IMG/VR virus record: IMGVR_UViG_3300025112_004324
Strand: one strand, 5' to 3'
DNA length: 43,513 bases
DNA from: a virus
Shown here: piece after piece, positions 2,369 to 11,874 of the stretch
Numbering within the stretch: the stretch's first letter is position 1
Layout of the letters: each line of letters starts with the position of its first letter
Translations under genes and position numbers: made by a program
Notes under the pieces: model-generated
The model's database searches: none
Seen by the model: the letters and a program-made list of their open reading frames with translations, nothing else
Told to the model about the DNA's origin: nothing

Positions 2369-2423
2369 TTGGATGGTTTTAGAATCTGGCTGATATATAT
2401 TACAGAATGATGGTTACATCATT
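2369..2423 (+). promoter_or_regulatory. Putative promoter and 5' hairpin of the SSB/recombination operon
   Basis: TG-A-TATATA (2391-2399) resembles an extended -10; hairpin AATGATG-GTTA-CATCATT at 2406-2423; RBS GGAG at 2448-2451. Confidence 0.4.
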
Positions 2424-2459
2424 ACTAATTAATAAATGAAATGTATAGGAGAATAAAAA

Positions 2460-3218
2460 ATGGATATTGATGCAATTCGTAAGAAATTAGAACAACTTCA
2501 AACAACAAACACCAGAACAACAAATCTTTGGAAACCACAGCCTGGTAAAACTCAAATAAGGATAGTACCTTATAAGTACAATAAATCAATTCCGTTCATT
2601 GAGTTATTTTTTCATTATGACTTGGGCGGAAAGAGTTATTTGTCACCTATCAGTTTTGGTCGTCCAGACCCGATTGAAGAGTTCGCAGATAAACTAAAAT
2701 CTTCCGGAAATAGGGAAGATTGGAGACTTGGTAAAAAGTTAGAAGCCAAGATGAGAACTTTTGCTCCCGTTGTAGTAAAAAGCGAAGAAGGAGAGGGTGT
2801 TAAATTCTGGGGTTTTGGTAAGACAGTTTATCAAGAACTTTTAAGTATTATAGCAGACCCTGATTATGGTGATATTAGTGATCCCGTAAATGGTCGTGAT
2901 GTAGTAGTAGAGTTCAAGACAGCTGAAGAAGTTGGATCTTCATTTCCAAAAACAAATATTCGTGTAAAACCAAATCAAACTCCTGTAACTGAAAATAAGG
3001 CAGTATTTGAAAGTATTCTTGAAAATCAAAAGAACATCACAGAAATCTATCAGGAACAGTCTTATGATGAACTTGCAGAAGTTTTACAAAATTGGTTAAG
3101 TCCCTCTGATGACGAGACAACTACAAAAGAAAGTGATTCAGCTACAGAAGCCACTTTGGAACAGACAACAACTGTAACAAATGCATCTGAAGCATTTGAT
3201 GAATTATTTAATAAGTAG
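2460..3218 (+). CDS. T4 gp32-like single-stranded DNA-binding protein
   Basis: WKPQPGKTQIRIVP, FFHY, DPIEEF, FWGFGKTVY and DPDYGDISDPVNGRD motifs; acidic tail ending DAFDELFNK. Confidence 0.85.
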   Translation: MDIDAIRKKLEQLQTTNTRTTNLWKPQPGKTQIRIVPYKYNKSIPFIELFFHYDLGGKSYLSPISFGRPDPIEEFADKLKSSGNREDWRLGKKLEAKMRTFAPVVVKSEEGEGVKFWGFGKTVYQELLSIIADPDYGDISDPVNGRDVVVEFKTAEEVGSSFPKTNIRVKPNQTPVTENKAVFESILENQKNITEIYQEQSYDELAEVLQNWLSPSDDETTTKESDSATEATLEQTTTVTNASEAFDELFNK

Positions 3219-5527: not shown

Positions 5528-6886
5528 ATGAGTGAGAATTTAACTAGCTTTGGTCCTACTTTTCAAATGAAAGTTATAGCTTCTCTATTAGAAGATCCTG
5601 TTTTTACACAAACAGTATTAGATATTTTAAAGCCAATATACTTTGAGTCAGATGCCAATAGATGGATAGTAGATACAATCGTTTCGTATTTTATGGAATA
5701 TAAAACCAATGCTACATTGGAAGTATTGAAAGTTAAGATAGATGAAATTGAAAATGATATATTGAAAGCGGGAGTTGTAGAAAATCTGAAGGAAGCTTGG
5801 CGAAATATTGAATCTCCTGACTTAGAGTTCATAAAAGAAGAAACTCTCAATTTTTGTAAGAACCAGGTCTTGAAAAATGCCATTGTACAGTCAGTTGACT
5901 TATTGGAAATTAAGGATTATGATGGAATCAAAAAATTGATAGATGACGCGATGAGATCTGGTGCAGAAAGAAATTTAGGACACGATTATATTATTGGAAT
6001 AGAAGAAAGACTTACTAAAAATGCAAGGGAAACTATAAAGTCGCCGTGGGATGTTGTAAATGAAATTATGGATGGTGGATTAGGTACAGGAGAATTGGGA
6101 GTTATTGTTGCACCAGCGGGAATTGGTAAAACTTGGTGTTTACAGTCTATTGCGGCAGGGGCAGTTAGAGATGGATTGTCAGTAATCCATTATACATTAG
6201 AATTGAATCAGGCTTATGTTGGATTACGATATGATACTGTTTTTAGTGGAGTTACTACTACTAATATAAAATTTCATAAAGAAAAAGTTGAAAAAATAAT
6301 AAGTGAGTTGGAAGGAAAATTGTTAATAAAATATTATCCAACAAAATCAGCTTCAGTTCAGACTCTTTCATCTCATCTTAAACAATCAGAAATACAAGGA
6401 ATTAAACCTGATTTAGTAATAGTAGATTATGCAGATATTTTGGTTGGAGTGGGAAGTGAAAGGAGATTTGTTTTAGAAAATGTATATGAGGAGTTAAGAG
6501 GACTGGCTGGTGAGTTTGACGTTCCAATTTGGACAGCATCACAAGCCAACAGAAGTGCACTTGAGGAACATATTATAGATGCAACAAAAGTTGCTGAGGC
6601 TTACGCAAAAGTTATGATTGCAGATTTTGTAATGAGTATGAGTAGGAAAGTTGAAGATAAAATTTCGAATACAGGCAGGTTTCATGTGATTAAAAATCGG
6701 TTTGGACCAGATGGAATTACATTTCCATCTACAGTTAATACTAATATAGGTAATATTCAAGTTTATGAAGAGACTACTAAAGGTGGAAAGATAGCACAAG
6801 GTAAAATGGACAATTCAAAAGAATATGAAAGAAAAATGTTATCAAAAAAATATGATGATATGAATAAAGTTGATGGATTTGAGTAA
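5528..6886 (+). CDS. DnaB-like replicative helicase (T4 gp41-like)
   Basis: Walker A APAGIGKT; YTLEL; IVDYADI; WTASQANR; KNRFGPDG. Confidence 0.92.
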   Translation: MSENLTSFGPTFQMKVIASLLEDPVFTQTVLDILKPIYFESDANRWIVDTIVSYFMEYKTNATLEVLKVKIDEIENDILKAGVVENLKEAWRNIESPDLEFIKEETLNFCKNQVLKNAIVQSVDLLEIKDYDGIKKLIDDAMRSGAERNLGHDYIIGIEERLTKNARETIKSPWDVVNEIMDGGLGTGELGVIVAPAGIGKTWCLQSIAAGAVRDGLSVIHYTLELNQAYVGLRYDTVFSGVTTTNIKFHKEKVEKIISELEGKLLIKYYPTKSASVQTLSSHLKQSEIQGIKPDLVIVDYADILVGVGSERRFVLENVYEELRGLAGEFDVPIWTASQANRSALEEHIIDATKVAEAYAKVMIADFVMSMSRKVEDKISNTGRFHVIKNRFGPDGITFPSTVNTNIGNIQVYEETTKGGKIAQGKMDNSKEYERKMLSKKYDDMNKVDGFE

Positions 6887-6971: not shown

Positions 6972-8939
6972 ATGGAAAAATTCAAGTTATCAGATAATTT
7001 CATAGATAAATACAAGCGAAAAAGACCCCCATTTGGATTTAACGGACTCGGAGAATTAGTTTATATGAGAACTTATTCTCGCATCAAGGAAGATGGAAAA
7101 AACGAGCAATGGTGGGAAACTGTTCAAAGGGTTGTAGAGGGCACTTACTCAATGCAAATGAATTGGATTGATTCTCATCAACTTGGTTGGAATCCTTGGC
7201 AAGCACAGCGGTCAGCTCAAGAAATGTATGATAAGATATTCAATATGAAGTTTTTACCACCCGGCCGAGGTCTTTGGGCAATGGGAACTCCACTTACAGA
7301 AGAAAAAGGTCTTTATGCAGCACTGAACAATTGTGCATTTGTATCCACATCTACTATTAAAGACGATTATGCAAAACCATTTTGTTTTTTGATGGACGCA
7401 TCAATGTTGGGGGTAGGAGTTGGGTTTGATACAAAAGGTGCAAATCAAATCCTAATTAAAGGCCCCAATAAAAATAGAAATTCAGAATTATATGTAATTC
7501 CAGACACTCGGGAGGGTTGGATAGAATCTTTAAGGTTATTGTTAGAGAGTTATTTTCATGGAACATCACCTATAAAGTTTAATTATAATAAAATAAGAAA
7601 AGAGGGAGAACCAATTAAAGGTTTTGGTGGTCTTTCAAGTGGCCACAAACCATTAGAAGAGTCACACACAGGTATAAGAAAGGTTCTTGATGAAAACGTT
7701 GGATCTCCAATTAGTTCTACGGTTATTGTTGATATTATGAATCTTGTAGGTAAATGTGTAGTTGCGGGCAATGTTCGTAGAACAGCAGAGATTGTATTTG
7801 GTGATCCAAGTGATGAAGAGTATCTAAATCTCAAAAACTATAAAAAGAATCCACATAGAGAACAATATGGTTGGACTTCTAATAATTCAGTATTTGCAGA
7901 ACTTGGAATGGATTATACAGAGTCTTGTAAAAGAATTACAGACAACGGTGAACCTGGGTTTGCATGGTTAGAAAATATGAGAAGTTATGGTAGAATGTGT
8001 GATGAACCAAATGGTTATGATACACGAGCAGCAGGTGGCAATCCGTGTTTAGAACAGACATTAGAGTCATATGAGTTATGTTGTCTTGTAGAAACATTTC
8101 CGTTTCGTCATGAAAATTTGGAAGAGTTTAAAAGAACACTTAAATATGCCTATTTGTATGCTAAGACAGTAACACTCGGAAAGACTCATTGGCCAGAAAC
8201 TAATCGTGTTATGTTAAGAAATCGTAGAATTGGTTGTAGTGTTAGTGGTATTGCACAATTTATAACTTACAAAGGAATAGATGAACTGAAAACGTGGTTA
8301 ATGGATGGATATAATGTAATTCAAGATTGGGACAAGGTTTATAGTGAGTGGTTCGCAACCCCCCGTTCTATTAAGACTACTTCCGTAAAACCAAGTGGTA
8401 CTGTTTCACTATTAGCAGGTGCTACTCCAGGACTACATTATCCAGAAAGTAGATTATATATTAGACGAATAAGATTATCAAAATACAGTCCTTTACTTAA
8501 ACCACTTGAGGCCTCTGGATATAAGATAGAACCAGCATTTGGTTCAGAGGATACTACGGTAGTGGTGGAAGTTCCAGTCGATGTTGGTAAAGGAATAAGA
8601 ACTTCTAAGGAATTATCAGTATGGGAACAATTTAGTTTGGCAGCTTTTATGCAAAAGTATTGGGCAGACAATCAAGTTAGTTGTACTGTTACTTTTGATC
8701 CAGAAACAGAGAAAAGAGACTTGTCTCATGTTTTGGATATTTATCAGTATCAATTAAAGGGGATTTCTCTATTACCGAGAAGGAATGGAGGGGCTTATGC
8801 ACAAATGCCATATGAAGAAGTGGACAAGAAAAAATATGACACGATGATGTCAAAACTTAAATATTTATCTTTTAGACAGATTAAGGGAAGTGAGGCAGTG
8901 GTTGAAAAATTTTGTAATAATGATGTATGTGAAATTTAG
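6972..8939 (+). CDS. nrdJ: Class II (adenosylcobalamin-dependent) ribonucleotide reductase, monomeric RTPR type
   Basis: FLPPGRGLW, ALNNC, active-site NPCLE, ELCCLVE, TSVKPSGTVS and C-terminal CxxxxC (CNNDVC); no beta subunit nearby. Confidence 0.9.
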   Translation: MEKFKLSDNFIDKYKRKRPPFGFNGLGELVYMRTYSRIKEDGKNEQWWETVQRVVEGTYSMQMNWIDSHQLGWNPWQAQRSAQEMYDKIFNMKFLPPGRGLWAMGTPLTEEKGLYAALNNCAFVSTSTIKDDYAKPFCFLMDASMLGVGVGFDTKGANQILIKGPNKNRNSELYVIPDTREGWIESLRLLLESYFHGTSPIKFNYNKIRKEGEPIKGFGGLSSGHKPLEESHTGIRKVLDENVGSPISSTVIVDIMNLVGKCVVAGNVRRTAEIVFGDPSDEEYLNLKNYKKNPHREQYGWTSNNSVFAELGMDYTESCKRITDNGEPGFAWLENMRSYGRMCDEPNGYDTRAAGGNPCLEQTLESYELCCLVETFPFRHENLEEFKRTLKYAYLYAKTVTLGKTHWPETNRVMLRNRRIGCSVSGIAQFITYKGIDELKTWLMDGYNVIQDWDKVYSEWFATPRSIKTTSVKPSGTVSLLAGATPGLHYPESRLYIRRIRLSKYSPLLKPLEASGYKIEPAFGSEDTTVVVEVPVDVGKGIRTSKELSVWEQFSLAAFMQKYWADNQVSCTVTFDPETEKRDLSHVLDIYQYQLKGISLLPRRNGGAYAQMPYEEVDKKKYDTMMSKLKYLSFRQIKGSEAVVEKFCNNDVCEI

Positions 8940-8954
8940 AAATATCGTGGGAAA

Positions 8955-8990
8955 AACAGGCAGTTGACGCACCTGTTGAAAAATGCGTCA
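8955..8990 (+). promoter_or_regulatory. H-type RNA pseudoknot in the 5' leader of the TonB-dependent receptor gene
   Basis: Stem 1 AACAGG(8955-60)/CCTGTT(8972-77); stem 2 TGACGCA(8965-71)/TGCGTCA(8984-90); loop 1 CAGT; loop 3 GAAAAA. All 13 pairs are Watson-Crick. Confidence 0.6.
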
Positions 8991-9018
8991 TTTCAATAAA
9001 ACAATGAAGGAGACGATT

Positions 9019-11811
9019 ATGAAGAATCGTAACTTAATTTCTACATTGGCGGTGTTTTTTATGCCGATTGTTCTTTGGGGACAATCAGTTGCGGGAACAG
9101 TTACCGATGCAGAAACGAGTAAACCCCTAGTTGGAGCTAATGTTGTAGTAGAAGGAACTGATTTGGGTGCCGCTGCAGACGCAGATGGTGCTTATTCTAT
9201 CAAGGTAGATGCAGGTTCTTATACACTTACAGCTTCTTCAATTGGATATGCATCTCTTTCAGTAGAGGTTGATGTAGCGGAGGGGAAAGCGGTAAGTGCC
9301 GTAGACTTCTCCCTTTCAGTATCTGCATTAGAGATGTCTGCACTTGAGGTTTTGGCTTCGAGGGCAGATGAAAAAACACCTGTTGCTTATACTACGGTAG
9401 GAAAGGAAGAGATTGAATTTCGTCTTGGTTCACAAGACTTACCAATGTCTCTTAATCTTACTCCGAGTGTATATGCAACTCAACAGGGTGGTGGAGCAGG
9501 AGATGCACGTATCAATGTTCGTGGGTTTAACCAACGGAATATTGCGGTAATGATTAACGGAGTTCCACAGAATGATATGGAAAATGGTTGGGTCTATTGG
9601 TCTAACTGGGATGGTGTAGCAGATGTTGCACAATCCATCCAGATGCAACGTGGATTAAGTGCTGTTAATTTAGCTGCACCTTCTATTGGTGGAACTATGA
9701 ACATCATAACAGATCCTGCTGCTCTTGAAAAGGGTGGTAAATACAAACAGGAAGTTGGAGCAGGTGGATTCCTGAAATCAACTTTCAATTACAACACTGG
9801 GTTGGTAGCGGACAAGTTCGCTTTCAGTTTTACTGGTGTTAGAAAGACAGGTGATGGTGTCATAGACAAGACGTGGACAGATGCTTGGGCATATTACTTT
9901 GGTGCAAGTTACGCACTGAATGAAAAGAACCGATTCGAATTATATGCAGTCGGTGCACCACAACGTCATGGTCAGAATCTATACAAACAGAATCTTGGCG
10001 CATACGATGCCGAGTTTGCTGAAAGTGTAGAAGGATATGACGCTACAGCTCTTGGTGAAGATGGTCAGTTCAAAGATGTTGGACGAACATTTAACCAGAA
10101 CTGGTCACCAATTGACCCGTCTTATGAGGGTAAACAATATTGGTATATGTATGGAGCCAATACAGTTGCTAGACACGATCCTAACTATCTAAATGAAAGA
10201 GAGAACTTCTTTCACAAACCATTGGTTAACCTTAACCATTTCTTAACTATCAATGACAAAACAAGACTGAGTTCAGTCTTTTATTGGAGTGGTGGTTCAG
10301 GAGGTGGAACTGGTACTTATGGTAGGATTCCTACCTTAGATGCTGATGGTAACTTAGGTGATGATGATTATAAGTTCTATTATGGTCGTGGTCCCTGGAC
10401 TCGTGATTGGAATGCTCTTGTTGCTATGAACTCTGGCACAGATTCAGTAGTATATGTTGATAAGAGAGCTATTAGTAGAGAATCTGGTCAATCAGTAGGT
10501 ATTTTGAGGAACAGTATTAATCGTCAAAATACGATTGGTGTTATTTCTAAACTCAACTTAGATTTAAGTGATGCACTTAAATTACAGGCGGGTATAGATT
10601 GGCGTACTGCAGGTATAGAACATGCACGTGAAGTTCGTGATTTACTTGGTGGTGATTTCTATGTGGATTTTGCTGATGATAATGCACCTGATGGTAAAAA
10701 TGTTGAGTTAGGTGATATTATTGCTTATCACAATGAAACTACAGTTGATTGGTTAGGTGGATTCTTACAAGGATCATATTCCTCAGGTCCACTTTCAGCA
10801 TATGGTATGGGTGGAGTATCGAGCATTGCTTATACTTACCAAGACCATTTCACTGTTGCAGATGAAGTTATAGATCACGGTGATCCTATTATTACTACTC
10901 AGTTCAAAGGTGGAGCAATGTATGATGTTGCAGATAACGTTAGTGTTTTCGGTAACTTCGGTATTGTGGAAAAACCACCTATTATGGATAACGTGATTTA
11001 CTTTGATGGAACAGTTGCTTCAGACCCGGCAAATGAACAGTTTGTCAGTTCAGAAGCTGGAGTGAATTACAGTGCTAGAAATCTGGCAGTTAAAGTCAGT
11101 GCATACAATACAGATTGGAAAGATAGAAACCTTACCAAAGCTGTAACGAGTGGACAAGGTAGTTCAGGTGATACTGATGTTATCTTCTTATCTGGTATAA
11201 ACCAGAATCATAAAGGTGTTGAAGTAGAGGCATCTACTAATGTTACCAATATGGTTCGTTTGGATGCCGCAGTAAGTCTTGGAAACTGGACTTTTGTTGG
11301 TGATGCAGATGGTAATTATCAGGAAGATGAGTATAATGAACAAGGTCAGGTTGTTGGACAGACAACCACTCCATATTCTTACGCACTTGATGGTTTGTTT
11401 GTAGGTGATATGCCTCAGACAGCTTATGTTGTAGGTGTTACAGTAACACCAATAAAAGGACTTAGATTGCAATCTTCGTTCAATGTGTATGATGACAATT
11501 ATGCAGATTGGAGTCCTAATGCAAGAGAGTATGATGGTTCAGACGCAGACGCTGATAGAGAACAAGTATGGCAGGCACCTGGATTTTCTAGGATGGACTT
11601 ACATGCTACATACGATTTGCCAAAAATCGGTGGGTTGAATCTACAGGCATTTGCTCATATGTTTAACGCATTAGATGCTGTATATGTGCAGGATGCAGTA
11701 GATCACAGTCAATACAATAGTTACGGAGATAAAACTCACGCAGCTCATAACGCAGAAGTATTTCTTGGAATACCAAGATACTTTAATGCAGGTATTACTG
11801 TAAATTTCTAA
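9019..11811 (+). CDS. TonB-dependent outer-membrane receptor with N-terminal carboxypeptidase-regulatory-like domain
   Basis: Signal peptide MKNRNLISTLAVFFMPIVLWGQ; GTVTDAETSKPLVGANVVVEGT domain; plug motif INVRGFNQRNIAVMINGVPQND; beta-strand-rich barrel; terminal Phe (GITVNF). RBS AAGGAG favours ATG 9019. Confidence 0.9.
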   Translation: MKNRNLISTLAVFFMPIVLWGQSVAGTVTDAETSKPLVGANVVVEGTDLGAAADADGAYSIKVDAGSYTLTASSIGYASLSVEVDVAEGKAVSAVDFSLSVSALEMSALEVLASRADEKTPVAYTTVGKEEIEFRLGSQDLPMSLNLTPSVYATQQGGGAGDARINVRGFNQRNIAVMINGVPQNDMENGWVYWSNWDGVADVAQSIQMQRGLSAVNLAAPSIGGTMNIITDPAALEKGGKYKQEVGAGGFLKSTFNYNTGLVADKFAFSFTGVRKTGDGVIDKTWTDAWAYYFGASYALNEKNRFELYAVGAPQRHGQNLYKQNLGAYDAEFAESVEGYDATALGEDGQFKDVGRTFNQNWSPIDPSYEGKQYWYMYGANTVARHDPNYLNERENFFHKPLVNLNHFLTINDKTRLSSVFYWSGGSGGGTGTYGRIPTLDADGNLGDDDYKFYYGRGPWTRDWNALVAMNSGTDSVVYVDKRAISRESGQSVGILRNSINRQNTIGVISKLNLDLSDALKLQAGIDWRTAGIEHAREVRDLLGGDFYVDFADDNAPDGKNVELGDIIAYHNETTVDWLGGFLQGSYSSGPLSAYGMGGVSSIAYTYQDHFTVADEVIDHGDPIITTQFKGGAMYDVADNVSVFGNFGIVEKPPIMDNVIYFDGTVASDPANEQFVSSEAGVNYSARNLAVKVSAYNTDWKDRNLTKAVTSGQGSSGDTDVIFLSGINQNHKGVEVEASTNVTNMVRLDAAVSLGNWTFVGDADGNYQEDEYNEQGQVVGQTTTPYSYALDGLFVGDMPQTAYVVGVTVTPIKGLRLQSSFNVYDDNYADWSPNAREYDGSDADADREQVWQAPGFSRMDLHATYDLPKIGGLNLQAFAHMFNALDAVYVQDAVDHSQYNSYGDKTHAAHNAEVFLGIPRYFNAGITVNF

Positions 11812-11822
11812 CAAGCAAAAAG

Positions 11823-11874
11823 AAATGAAATGTAACAGGGGAAGTAGAAATATTTCCCCTGTGTTTCATTTTTT
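11823..11874 (+). terminator. Intrinsic terminator after the receptor gene (possibly bidirectional)
   Basis: ACAGGGGAAGTA-GAAA-TATTTCCCCTGT 12-bp stem with GNRA loop, extended by AAATGAAA/TTTCATTT and followed by a T run. Confidence 0.8.

What the first reader, a model, noticed from the sequence alone, without database searches (positions are those of the whole stretch)
8955..8990. Perfect H-type pseudoknot in the receptor leader: candidate riboswitch or regulatory motif
Seen: stem 1 of 6 bp, loop 1 of 4 nt, stem 2 of 7 bp, no loop 2, and an A-rich 6-nt loop 3, all Watson-Crick, ending 28 nt before the ATG. This is canonical geometry for A-minor-stabilised pseudoknots. Known: several small riboswitches (preQ1-I, SAM-II, SAM-V, guanidine-III) are compact H-type pseudoknots, and transporter genes are typical targets. 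The sequence does not match those consensus motifs as I recall them. Inference: a new ligand-sensing, protein-binding or nuclease-blocking RNA element. At DNA level it is also an inverted repeat, TGACGCA-N12-TGCGTCA, which could be an operator.
Basis: partly seen in the sequence, partly recalled or inferred. Interest (0 to 1): 0.75.

Follow-up and report, generated by a model that had tools for sequence, protein, structure and literature searches.

The report
Pseudoknot leader of phage TonB receptor
A 34-base RNA pseudoknot just upstream of an outer-membrane importer gene in uncultured marine T4-like phages is real, conserved with compensating base changes in every relative examined, and absent from the RNA family catalogue, so it is a new gene-control element whose trigger is still unknown.

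Summary
The reported pseudoknot is present exactly as described (8955-8990). On its own it is not beyond chance: about 0.9 perfect knots of this size are expected per window. Comparison with relatives makes it real. All 77 phage relatives of the downstream TonB-dependent receptor (TBDR) that have upstream sequence carry the motif. Over 107 distinct copies, 97.5% of core pair cells pair, and 6 of 11 pairs show double compensatory changes. The conserved core is 5 + 6 bp (8956-8960/8972-8976 and 8966-8971/8984-8989); the window's sixth and seventh pairs are private.

There is no Rfam match. The motif occurs once per phage record and always before the TBDR. It is absent from eight cellular-type TBDR homologue leaders. 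A strict pattern scan of 185,579 species genomes found it only on four phage-like contigs.

No alternative helix, terminator or conserved uORF links the knot to the Shine-Dalgarno site, which lies behind a G-poor, variable linker.

I favour a translation-control module built like the T4 gene 32 operator (0.45) over a metabolite riboswitch (0.25) or an RNA-decay barrier (0.18). The scan has already found this motif on other DNA, with the same open outcome.

The parts
8955..8990 (+).
   Evidence: outer pairs unpaired in 49 of 55 relatives
8956..8960 (+). Stem 1, 5' strand (ACAGG); pairs with 8972-8976
   Evidence: pairs 2-5 are never broken in 107 sequences. C-G changes to U-A in 11, and A-U changes to U-A in 17. 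The two G-C pairs at the junction are invariant.
8961..8965 (+). Loop 1 (CAGTT): C, A and G are each kept in at least 90% of copies, and the last two bases are free
8966..8971 (+). Stem 2, 5' strand (GACGCA); pairs with 8984-8989 and abuts stem 1's 3' strand with no loop 2
   Evidence: 99.4% of cells are paired, and A-U/G-C swaps occur at three pairs (33, 14 and 5 sequences). RNAalifold finds this helix independently.
8972..8976 (+). Stem 1, 3' strand (CCTGT)
8977..8983 (+). Loop 3 (TGAAAAA): two free bases followed by a run of five A (last four invariant, first in at least 90% of copies)
8984..8989 (+). Stem 2, 3' strand (TGCGTC). Its ATG (8983-8985) is not a conserved start codon.
8990..9006 (+). 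Single-stranded linker, A/C-rich and G-poor, of variable length in relatives
   Evidence: 11-26 nt long, with A 53%, T 22%, C 18%, G 6.6%, against window G 20.7% and C 11.9%. No conserved pairing.
9007..9012 (+). Shine-Dalgarno AAGGAG, 6 nt before the ATG at 9019
   Evidence: GGAG conserved in the relatives aligned
9019..11811 (+). TonB-dependent receptor gene (CarboxypepD_reg, Plug and barrel; 930 aa), the gene the element always precedes
11835..11862 (+). Intrinsic terminator (12-bp stem plus T run) that closes the receptor cassette
6972..8939 (+). Upstream gene: adenosylcobalamin-dependent ribonucleoside-triphosphate reductase. Its stop codon lies 16 nt before the conserved stem 1.

Best explanation
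The element is a compact H-type RNA pseudoknot on the plus-strand mRNA, between the phage's B12-dependent ribonucleotide reductase gene and its TonB-dependent receptor gene. I put the probability that it is a real, selected RNA structure at about 0.9.

I think it most likely works as the structured boundary of a translation-control module built like the T4 gene 32 operator. That module has three parts: a rigid knot, then a deliberately unstructured G-poor landing strip of 11-26 nt, then a strong Shine-Dalgarno site. In this reading the knot is held by loop-helix contacts. These would be the A run in the minor groove of stem 1, and the conserved CAG of loop 1 in the major groove of stem 2, next to the invariant junction pairs.

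The knot would insulate the receptor's ribosome-loading zone from the upstream cistron. It would also offer a fixed nucleation or docking point, either for a single-strand-binding repressor such as the phage's own gp32 homologue, or for the 30S subunit or protein S1 as a standby site. Receptor synthesis would then be set independently of the reductase on the same transcript.

Shown: the fold, its conservation, its exclusive link to the receptor gene, the unstructured linker, and the lack of any alternative pairing. Inferred: the tertiary contacts, the level of action (translation) and the identity of the partner.
For: Fold and selection:
- All 77 relatives found by receptor protein homology alone that have upstream sequence carry the motif.
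- In 107 distinct copies, 97.5% of core pair cells pair. There are 84 compensatory cells against 17.8 in shuffles (0 of 500 shuffles reach this), and at most 23 in slid controls (for the unbiased set of 55).
- All 8 intermediates in the three covarying stem 2 pairs are G.U; the 4 unpaired cells at the distal pair were not resolved by type.

Module architecture:
- The linker has 6.6% G against 20.7% in the window and varies in length.
- RNAalifold on 32 leaders finds only stem 2 and no helix touching the SD or the AUG.
- GGAG is conserved.

Cassette behaviour:
- The knot stays with the receptor gene when the upstream gene differs.
- It is followed by the gene and then a strong terminator.
- There is one copy per phage record, even when 3 mismatches are allowed.

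Intercistronic position: the upstream stop codon is 5-38 nt from stem 1 in nearly all copies, median 17.

Phage context: the phage has a T4-type polymerase and a gp32 homologue at 2460-3218.

Phage-only distribution: the motif is absent from 8 cellular-type homologue leaders. A strict pattern scan of 185,579 species genomes found it only on 4 phage-like contigs. This fits an element that arose in the phage.
Against: - No binding partner is identified.
- The receptor is not an RNA-binding protein, so the autogenous logic of gene 32 does not carry over.
- The phage's own gp32 gene leader has a plain hairpin plus an AU tract, not this knot. That weakens gp32 as the partner.
- The knot is often not at an mRNA 5' end but a few bases after the upstream stop codon, unlike the gene 32 operator.
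- Fourteen invariant positions are more than simple insulation needs. They would also fit a specific small-molecule pocket.
- No expression data could be obtained.
Confidence: 0.45

Rival explanations
1. The element is a new small-molecule riboswitch. The knot would be an aptamer with its pocket at the stem 1/stem 2 junction. Ligand binding would alter ribosome loading, or Rho access, on the adjacent C-rich, G-poor linker. The ligand could be something tied to the neighbouring genes, such as a cobamide or a nucleotide.
For: - The size and topology are those of the compact pseudoknot aptamers, with an A-rich loop 3 and invariant bases concentrated at the helical junction and in both loops.
- It sits before a transporter gene.
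- It is self-contained, single-copy and travels with the cargo gene.
- The two hairpins are each only moderately stable alone, at -4.4 and -7.4 kcal/mol.
- The linker has C above G, as rut sites do.
Against: - No expression platform was found. There is no alternative helix with the SD or AUG, no terminator after the knot, and the SD is 11-26 nt away with variable spacing.
- The motif matches no known riboswitch model.
- The strict pattern scan found it in no cellular genome context. It is also absent from the leaders of the nearest cellular-type homologues, which carry no Rfam riboswitch either. To my knowledge, riboswitch classes found in phages also occur in bacteria.
- It is confined to one gene family in one phage clade.
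Confidence: 0.25
2. The element is a constitutive RNA-decay or processing barrier. A very compact, triplex-stabilised knot would block exonucleases, or define an RNase cut in the AU/CA-rich linker. The reductase and receptor segments of one transcript would then have different lifetimes.
For: - Its position is intercistronic, a few bases after the upstream stop codon.
- A single-stranded A-rich linker lies next to a stable fold.
- The invariant bases could be explained by folding alone.
- There is no alternative structure.
Against: - A plain GC-rich hairpin would serve the same purpose. Nothing requires a pseudoknot with this much sequence constraint.
- The knot follows the receptor gene rather than the upstream gene when the two are separated.
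- No transcript-end data are available.
Confidence: 0.18
3. The element is a DNA-level operator. The inverted repeat GACRCA-N12-TGYGTC would be bound by a dimeric transcription factor.
For: The repeat exists and is conserved. A second conserved motif, TTTCACATAC, lies upstream in about two thirds of relatives and could be a protein site or a promoter element.
Against: - Half-sites of operators are conserved rather than compensating. Here two interleaved repeats both covary.
- G.U intermediates are tolerated at the covarying stem 2 pairs: all 8 intermediates there are G.U.
- The loops are asymmetric and strand-specific (A run).
- In a third of relatives there is hardly any intergenic DNA for a promoter.
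Confidence: 0.03
4. The element is a recoding signal or an upstream-ORF device. The knot would stimulate frameshifting or readthrough at the end of the reductase gene, or its invariant AUG would start a leader peptide coupled to the receptor start.
For: - H-type knots with an A-rich loop 3 are classic frameshift stimulators.
- The knot lies 5-38 nt after a stop codon.
- The AUG at 8983 is in frame with the receptor in this window.
- In 29 of 112 leaders an ORF from it ends in an ATGA overlap with the receptor start.
Against: - The frame of that AUG relative to the receptor start is close to random, 38 of 112 leaders stop after a few codons, and no SD precedes it.
- The distance from the upstream stop is variable, and the upstream gene is not always the reductase.
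- The receptor has its own conserved SD and start.
Confidence: 0.02

Closest known systems
Translational operator of gene 32 mRNA in T4-type phages (H-type pseudoknot, unstructured tract, then ribosome-binding site); from established knowledge, not retrieved here
   Same: Both occur in a T4-type phage. Both have a compact H-type pseudoknot followed by a structure-free, G-poor tract that runs into the ribosome-binding site, with no alternative pairing needed.
   Different: This element precedes an outer-membrane receptor gene, not the SSB gene. The phage's own gp32 leader lacks this knot. The knot is intercistronic and close to an upstream stop codon rather than at the mRNA 5' end. The linker is CA-rich rather than AU-rich and shorter. 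No binding partner is known.
preQ1-I riboswitch (Rfam RF00522)
   Same: Both are about 34 nt with H-type topology, a 5-bp first stem ending in G-C pairs, and an A-rich 3' loop lying along that stem.
   Different: This element gives no hit to the model even at E = 10 in three divergent leaders. Its second stem is 6 bp rather than 3-4. It has no loop 2, so no unpaired C to pair with the ligand. Its SD is not part of the knot. It is never associated with queuosine genes.
SAM-II / SAM-V riboswitches (RF00521, RF01826) and guanidine-III (RF01763)
   Same: All are classic H-type pseudoknots in which a loop lies in a helix groove. All sit upstream of metabolic or transport genes, and SAM-V is common in marine metagenomes.
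   Different: This element matches none of these models. In those classes the SD is next to or inside the knot. The gene association and conserved bases also differ.
Frameshift-stimulating pseudoknots of luteoviruses and retroviruses
   Same: Both have two short coaxial stems, no inter-stem loop, and an A-rich loop in the minor groove of stem 1.
   Different: Here there is no slippery site at a fixed distance, no overlapping ORF, and variable spacing to the upstream stop codon. The element lies in a 5' leader with its own SD and start.

Membership tests
preQ1-I riboswitch (RF00522) | Scores against the family covariance model | tested here: not met
   No PreQ1 hit at E <= 10 in the window leader or in two divergent relatives, and none at gathering score in the whole window
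preQ1-I riboswitch (RF00522) | Unpaired loop-2 cytosine next to stem 1's 3' strand that pairs with the ligand | tested here: not met
   Loop 2 has length 0 in all 107 copies; stem 2's 5' strand abuts stem 1's 3' strand
preQ1-I riboswitch (RF00522) | Association with queuosine synthesis or transport genes | tested here: not met
   103 of 118 pattern matches in viral contigs have the TonB receptor downstream. Twelve of the other 15 are contig ends, two are gene remnants and one is a chance hit.
SAM-II / SAM-V / guanidine-III / other catalogued pseudoknot riboswitches | Scores against the family covariance models of Rfam 15 | tested here: not met
   No such family appears among matches at E <= 10, and no family recurs across three leaders
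Riboswitch (generic) | Conserved structured aptamer supported by covariation | tested here: met
Riboswitch (generic) | Expression platform: alternative pairing with the SD or start codon, or a terminator | tested here: not met
   RNAalifold on 32 leaders finds only stem 2. There is no terminator after the knot. The SD is 11-26 nt away with variable spacing. Rho-dependent or steric platforms cannot be excluded.
Riboswitch (generic) | Direct, selective ligand binding | not testable with these tools
   Needs in-line probing, ITC or SHAPE
T4 gene 32-type translational operator | H-type pseudoknot followed by an unstructured tract reaching the ribosome-binding site | tested here: met
T4 gene 32-type translational operator | Lies in the leader of the SSB gene itself (autogenous control) | tested here: not met
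   The gp32 homologue is at 2460-3218. Its leader has a hairpin, not this knot. The single knot copy is at the receptor gene.
T4 gene 32-type translational operator | Cooperative binding of gp32 nucleated at the knot | not testable with these tools
   Needs gel shift or toeprinting with the purified protein
Programmed frameshift or readthrough pseudoknot | Fixed short spacing from a slippery site or stop codon, and an overlapping downstream frame | tested here: not met
   Spacing to the upstream stop is 5-100 nt, the upstream gene varies, and frames are random

The most novel reading that the evidence does not exclude
The knot is a riboswitch class that arose inside a phage lineage and exists nowhere in cellular genomes. 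It would sense a metabolite linked to the reductase-receptor pair, such as a cobamide or a nucleotide. It would act without a conventional SD-sequestering platform, for instance by changing 30S standby binding or Rho loading on the C-rich, G-poor linker.
Probability: 0.22. Interest if true: 0.9.

Novelty: new variant of a known kind. Interest (0 to 1): 0.6.

Why it matters
Structured leader RNAs with this degree of covariation and base invariance are usually functional. This one heads a very abundant auxiliary gene of ocean phages: thousands of receptor homologues exist in metagenomes.

If a factor gates it, that would show how a virus meters an imported nutrient transporter separately from its DNA-precursor enzyme on one transcript. 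If a metabolite is the trigger, it would be, to my knowledge, the first riboswitch class known only from viruses.

Even as a constitutive element, it is a small natural pseudoknot with apparent triplex contacts. That makes it a convenient model and a possible part for expression control.

Tried and rejected
1. Single-sequence significance was rejected. Perfect 6/7-bp knots occur about 0.9 times per shuffled window.
2. No Rfam family fits. Nothing appeared at gathering score, and nothing recurred at E <= 10 in three leaders.
3. The invariant AUG in the knot does not start a uORF. Frames are random and early stops are common.
4. Alternative pairing of the knot strands with the SD region was considered. 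CGTCT/AGACG occurs in some leaders but does not covary, and RNAalifold finds none.
5. The upstream motif TTTCACATAC is not a repeated phage promoter. It occurs zero to two times per 70-130 kb record and is absent from a third of leaders.
6. Pairing of that motif with the reductase's Cys-Glu-Ile codons was considered. Complementarity of 8 bp or more exists in many relatives, but the motif persists where the upstream gene is not the reductase and does not track codon changes. This is left as an observation.
7. A host origin of the knot was not supported. Eight cellular-type homologues at 39-54% identity lack it. The genome-wide pattern scan found only phage-like contigs binned into MAGs.
8. A multi-gene regulon was not supported. 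There is one copy per record even at 3 mismatches.
10. The literature searches (one search was rejected as malformed) and the papers I opened gave no description of the motif. One paper notes TonB-dependent receptors in marine megaphages (PMC9723777).
11. No RegA homologue was found in the window.

Full report
**What is in the sequence.** The region reads AACAGG CAGT TGACGCA CCTGTT GAAAAA TGCGTCA at 8955-8990. It ends 28 nt before the ATG at 9019, which is preceded by AAGGAG at 9007-9012.

The gene downstream (9019-11811) encodes a 930-aa TonB-dependent receptor with CarboxypepD_reg and Plug domains. The gene upstream (6972-8939) encodes an adenosylcobalamin-dependent ribonucleoside-triphosphate reductase. 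A T4-type family B DNA polymerase follows. A 12-bp terminator at 11835-11862 closes the receptor cassette. The window is part of a 53-kb IMG/VR virus record estimated at 15% complete.

**Is it more than chance?** In this sequence alone, it is not.
- A script that looks for perfect 6/7-bp H-type knots with similar loops finds this one and another on the minus strand (5726-5769).
- Block-shuffled windows give 0.88 on average, and 62 of 150 shuffles have at least one.
- The nested fold of the leader is ordinary (z = -0.58).

**Comparative evidence.** A search of viral contigs for relatives of the receptor protein found 316 loci, and 80 were kept, at 64-83% amino-acid identity. Every one of the 77 that has upstream sequence carries the motif at the same place. 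Because these were chosen by protein similarity only, the following counts are unbiased.
- In 55 distinct leaders, 14 positions are invariant.
- The ten inner pairs are never broken. The fifth stem 1 pair (8956/8976) is paired in 40 of 55. The outermost pair of each stem is unpaired in 49 of 55.

A pattern scan added more copies. Over 107 distinct sequences:
- 97.5% of core pair cells pair.
- 6 of 11 pairs show changes on both sides.
- There are 84 compensatory cells, against 17.8 in shuffles (0 of 500 reach this) and at most 23 when partners are slid by 1-3 columns.

In stem 1, C-G becomes U-A in 11 sequences and A-U becomes U-A in 17. In stem 2, three pairs swap between A-U and G-C (33, 14 and 5 sequences). 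At those three pairs all 8 intermediates are G.U; the 4 unpaired cells at the distal pair were not resolved by type. This points to the plus-strand RNA. RNAalifold recovers stem 2 on its own.

The conserved element is therefore:
- S1: 8956-8960 / 8972-8976
- L1: 8961-8965, consensus CAGNN
- S2: 8966-8971 / 8984-8989
- L3: 8977-8983, consensus NNAAAAA

The window's extra pair on each stem is private.

**Distribution.**
- No Rfam family matches at gathering score. None recurs at E <= 10 in three divergent leaders.
- Of 118 matches to a relaxed pattern in viral contigs, 103 have the receptor gene downstream and 12 are cut by contig ends. One is a chance hit. Two retain the leader and only about the first 15 receptor codons, the rest of the gene having been lost.
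- Each of five phage records of 53-132 kb has exactly one copy, even with three mismatches allowed.
- A scan of one genome per 185,579 prokaryote species gave 55 pattern matches. Only four have full pairing and the typical leader. All four have the same receptor start and phage synteny, and they sit in MAGs of mutually inconsistent taxonomy.
- Eight loci, carrying seven distinct representatives of the nearest non-phage receptor clusters (39-54% identity; several in clearly cellular contexts), have neither the knot nor any Rfam riboswitch upstream.

The element therefore appears to have arisen in this phage clade and belongs to the receptor cassette. It stays with the receptor where the upstream gene is not the reductase.

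**Anatomy of the leader.**
- The upstream ORF's stop codon lies 5-38 nt from stem 1 in nearly all copies, median 17. The knot is thus intercistronic, and many leaders leave no room for a promoter.
- About two thirds of leaders carry TTTCACATAC at 0-22 nt before the knot. It is not a repeated promoter. This window lacks it on the plus strand.
- After the knot comes an 11-26 nt linker with A 53%, T 22%, C 18% and G 6.6%. The window as a whole has G 20.7% and C 11.9%. A conserved GGAG follows.
- No conserved helix involves the SD or the start codon, and no terminator follows the knot.
- The invariant AUG inside stem 2 (8983) is in frame with the receptor here, which is why the ORF list starts there. 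Across 112 leaders, however, its frame is close to random and 38 stop after a few codons. It is not a start codon.
- The two hairpins alone are worth about -4.4 and -7.4 kcal/mol.

**How it probably works.** Invariance is concentrated at the helical junction: both G-C pairs of S1, three S2 pairs (the two nearest the junction and C20-G39), the conserved CAG of L1 and the A run of L3. The distal pairs covary freely. This pattern fits a precise three-dimensional fold with loop-groove contacts. I infer the contacts; they are not shown. Such a fold can be required for its own sake, for a protein, or for a ligand.

Three facts argue against a conventional riboswitch: there is no expression platform, the element is restricted to phages, and it is tied to a single gene family. 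The G-depleted, length-variable linker running into a strong SD is exactly the layout of the gene 32 operator of T4-type phages. This phage is T4-type and has a gp32 homologue.

I therefore favour a translation-control module in which the knot is the fixed structured boundary and docking point, and the linker is the loading strip for either a repressor or the 30S subunit (0.45). Three points weigh against this reading. The receptor cannot autoregulate. The gp32 gene's own leader lacks this knot. The knot is not at a 5' end.

The rivals are a metabolite riboswitch with an unconventional platform (0.25), a decay or processing barrier (0.18), a DNA operator (0.03) and recoding or a uORF (0.02).

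**Relation to earlier notes of this scan.** The same motif has been followed up on other DNA at least four times, with the same outcome: real, uncatalogued, trigger unknown, and closest analogue the gene 32 operator. My tests agree. They also add:
- the chance estimate for the single sequence;
- the strand-specific G.U intermediates;
- the rejection of the uORF reading;
- the single-copy result at three mismatches;
- the spacing to the upstream stop codon;
- the absence of the knot from the nearest cellular-type homologues.

**Verdict.** It is a new family of a known kind, the pseudoknot leader element.

Noticed in passing
window 8925-8935 (minus strand); relatives such as L001:2910-2920: About two thirds of relatives carry a conserved TTTCACATAC 0-22 nt before the knot. 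In this window the exact 11-mer ATTTCACATAC occurs only as its reverse complement, inside the reductase's last codons (Val-Cys-Glu-Ile). In relatives those codons (TGTGARAT), about 50 nt upstream, are complementary to the motif over 8 bp or more, so a long-range stem enclosing the reductase's C-terminal tail is possible. The motif persists where the upstream gene is not the reductase.
   Followed up: partly
L015, L072, L077, L151, L103, L182 and others, in the linker just after the knot: A subset of leaders (17 of 125) has a 12-base palindrome in the linker. It is either TTCATTAATGAA (8), TTCGTTAACGAA (8) or TTCATGAATGAA (1). The first two differ by a compensatory change, so this may be a small extra hairpin or a protein site. 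It is absent from this window.
   Followed up: partly
L235:5100-5320 and L248: In two contigs the knot, linker, SD and about the first 15 codons of the receptor gene are retained, but the rest of the gene is gone and a different 483-aa ORF follows. This is a natural deletion of the cassette's cargo.
   Followed up: partly
window 2400-2459: The leader of the gp32-type SSB gene (2460-3218) has a 7-bp hairpin (AATGATG-GTTA-CATCATT) followed by an AU-rich tract and AGGAG. This layout is reminiscent of an autoregulatory gene 32 operator but has a hairpin instead of a knot.
   Followed up: no
L093, L103, L121, L133 (genome contigs): Phage contigs with this cassette are binned into MAGs labelled Methanobacteriota, Candidatus Pelagibacter, Flavobacteriales and 'uncultured bacterium'. 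One protein homologue is labelled Marinimicrobia. The labels disagree with one another, so they say little about the host.
   Followed up: no
window 5726-5769, minus strand: A second perfect 6/7-bp H-type pseudoknot pattern (loops 7, 2 and 9) lies inside the helicase gene on the opposite strand. It is consistent with the chance expectation of about one per window.
   Followed up: no
window 6972-11811 and relatives: The B12-dependent reductase and the TonB receptor are adjacent in most relatives. JGI's automatic name for several homologues is 'outer membrane cobalamin receptor'. However, NCBIfam gives no BtuB assignment, and cellular homologues have no cobalamin riboswitch.
   Followed up: partly
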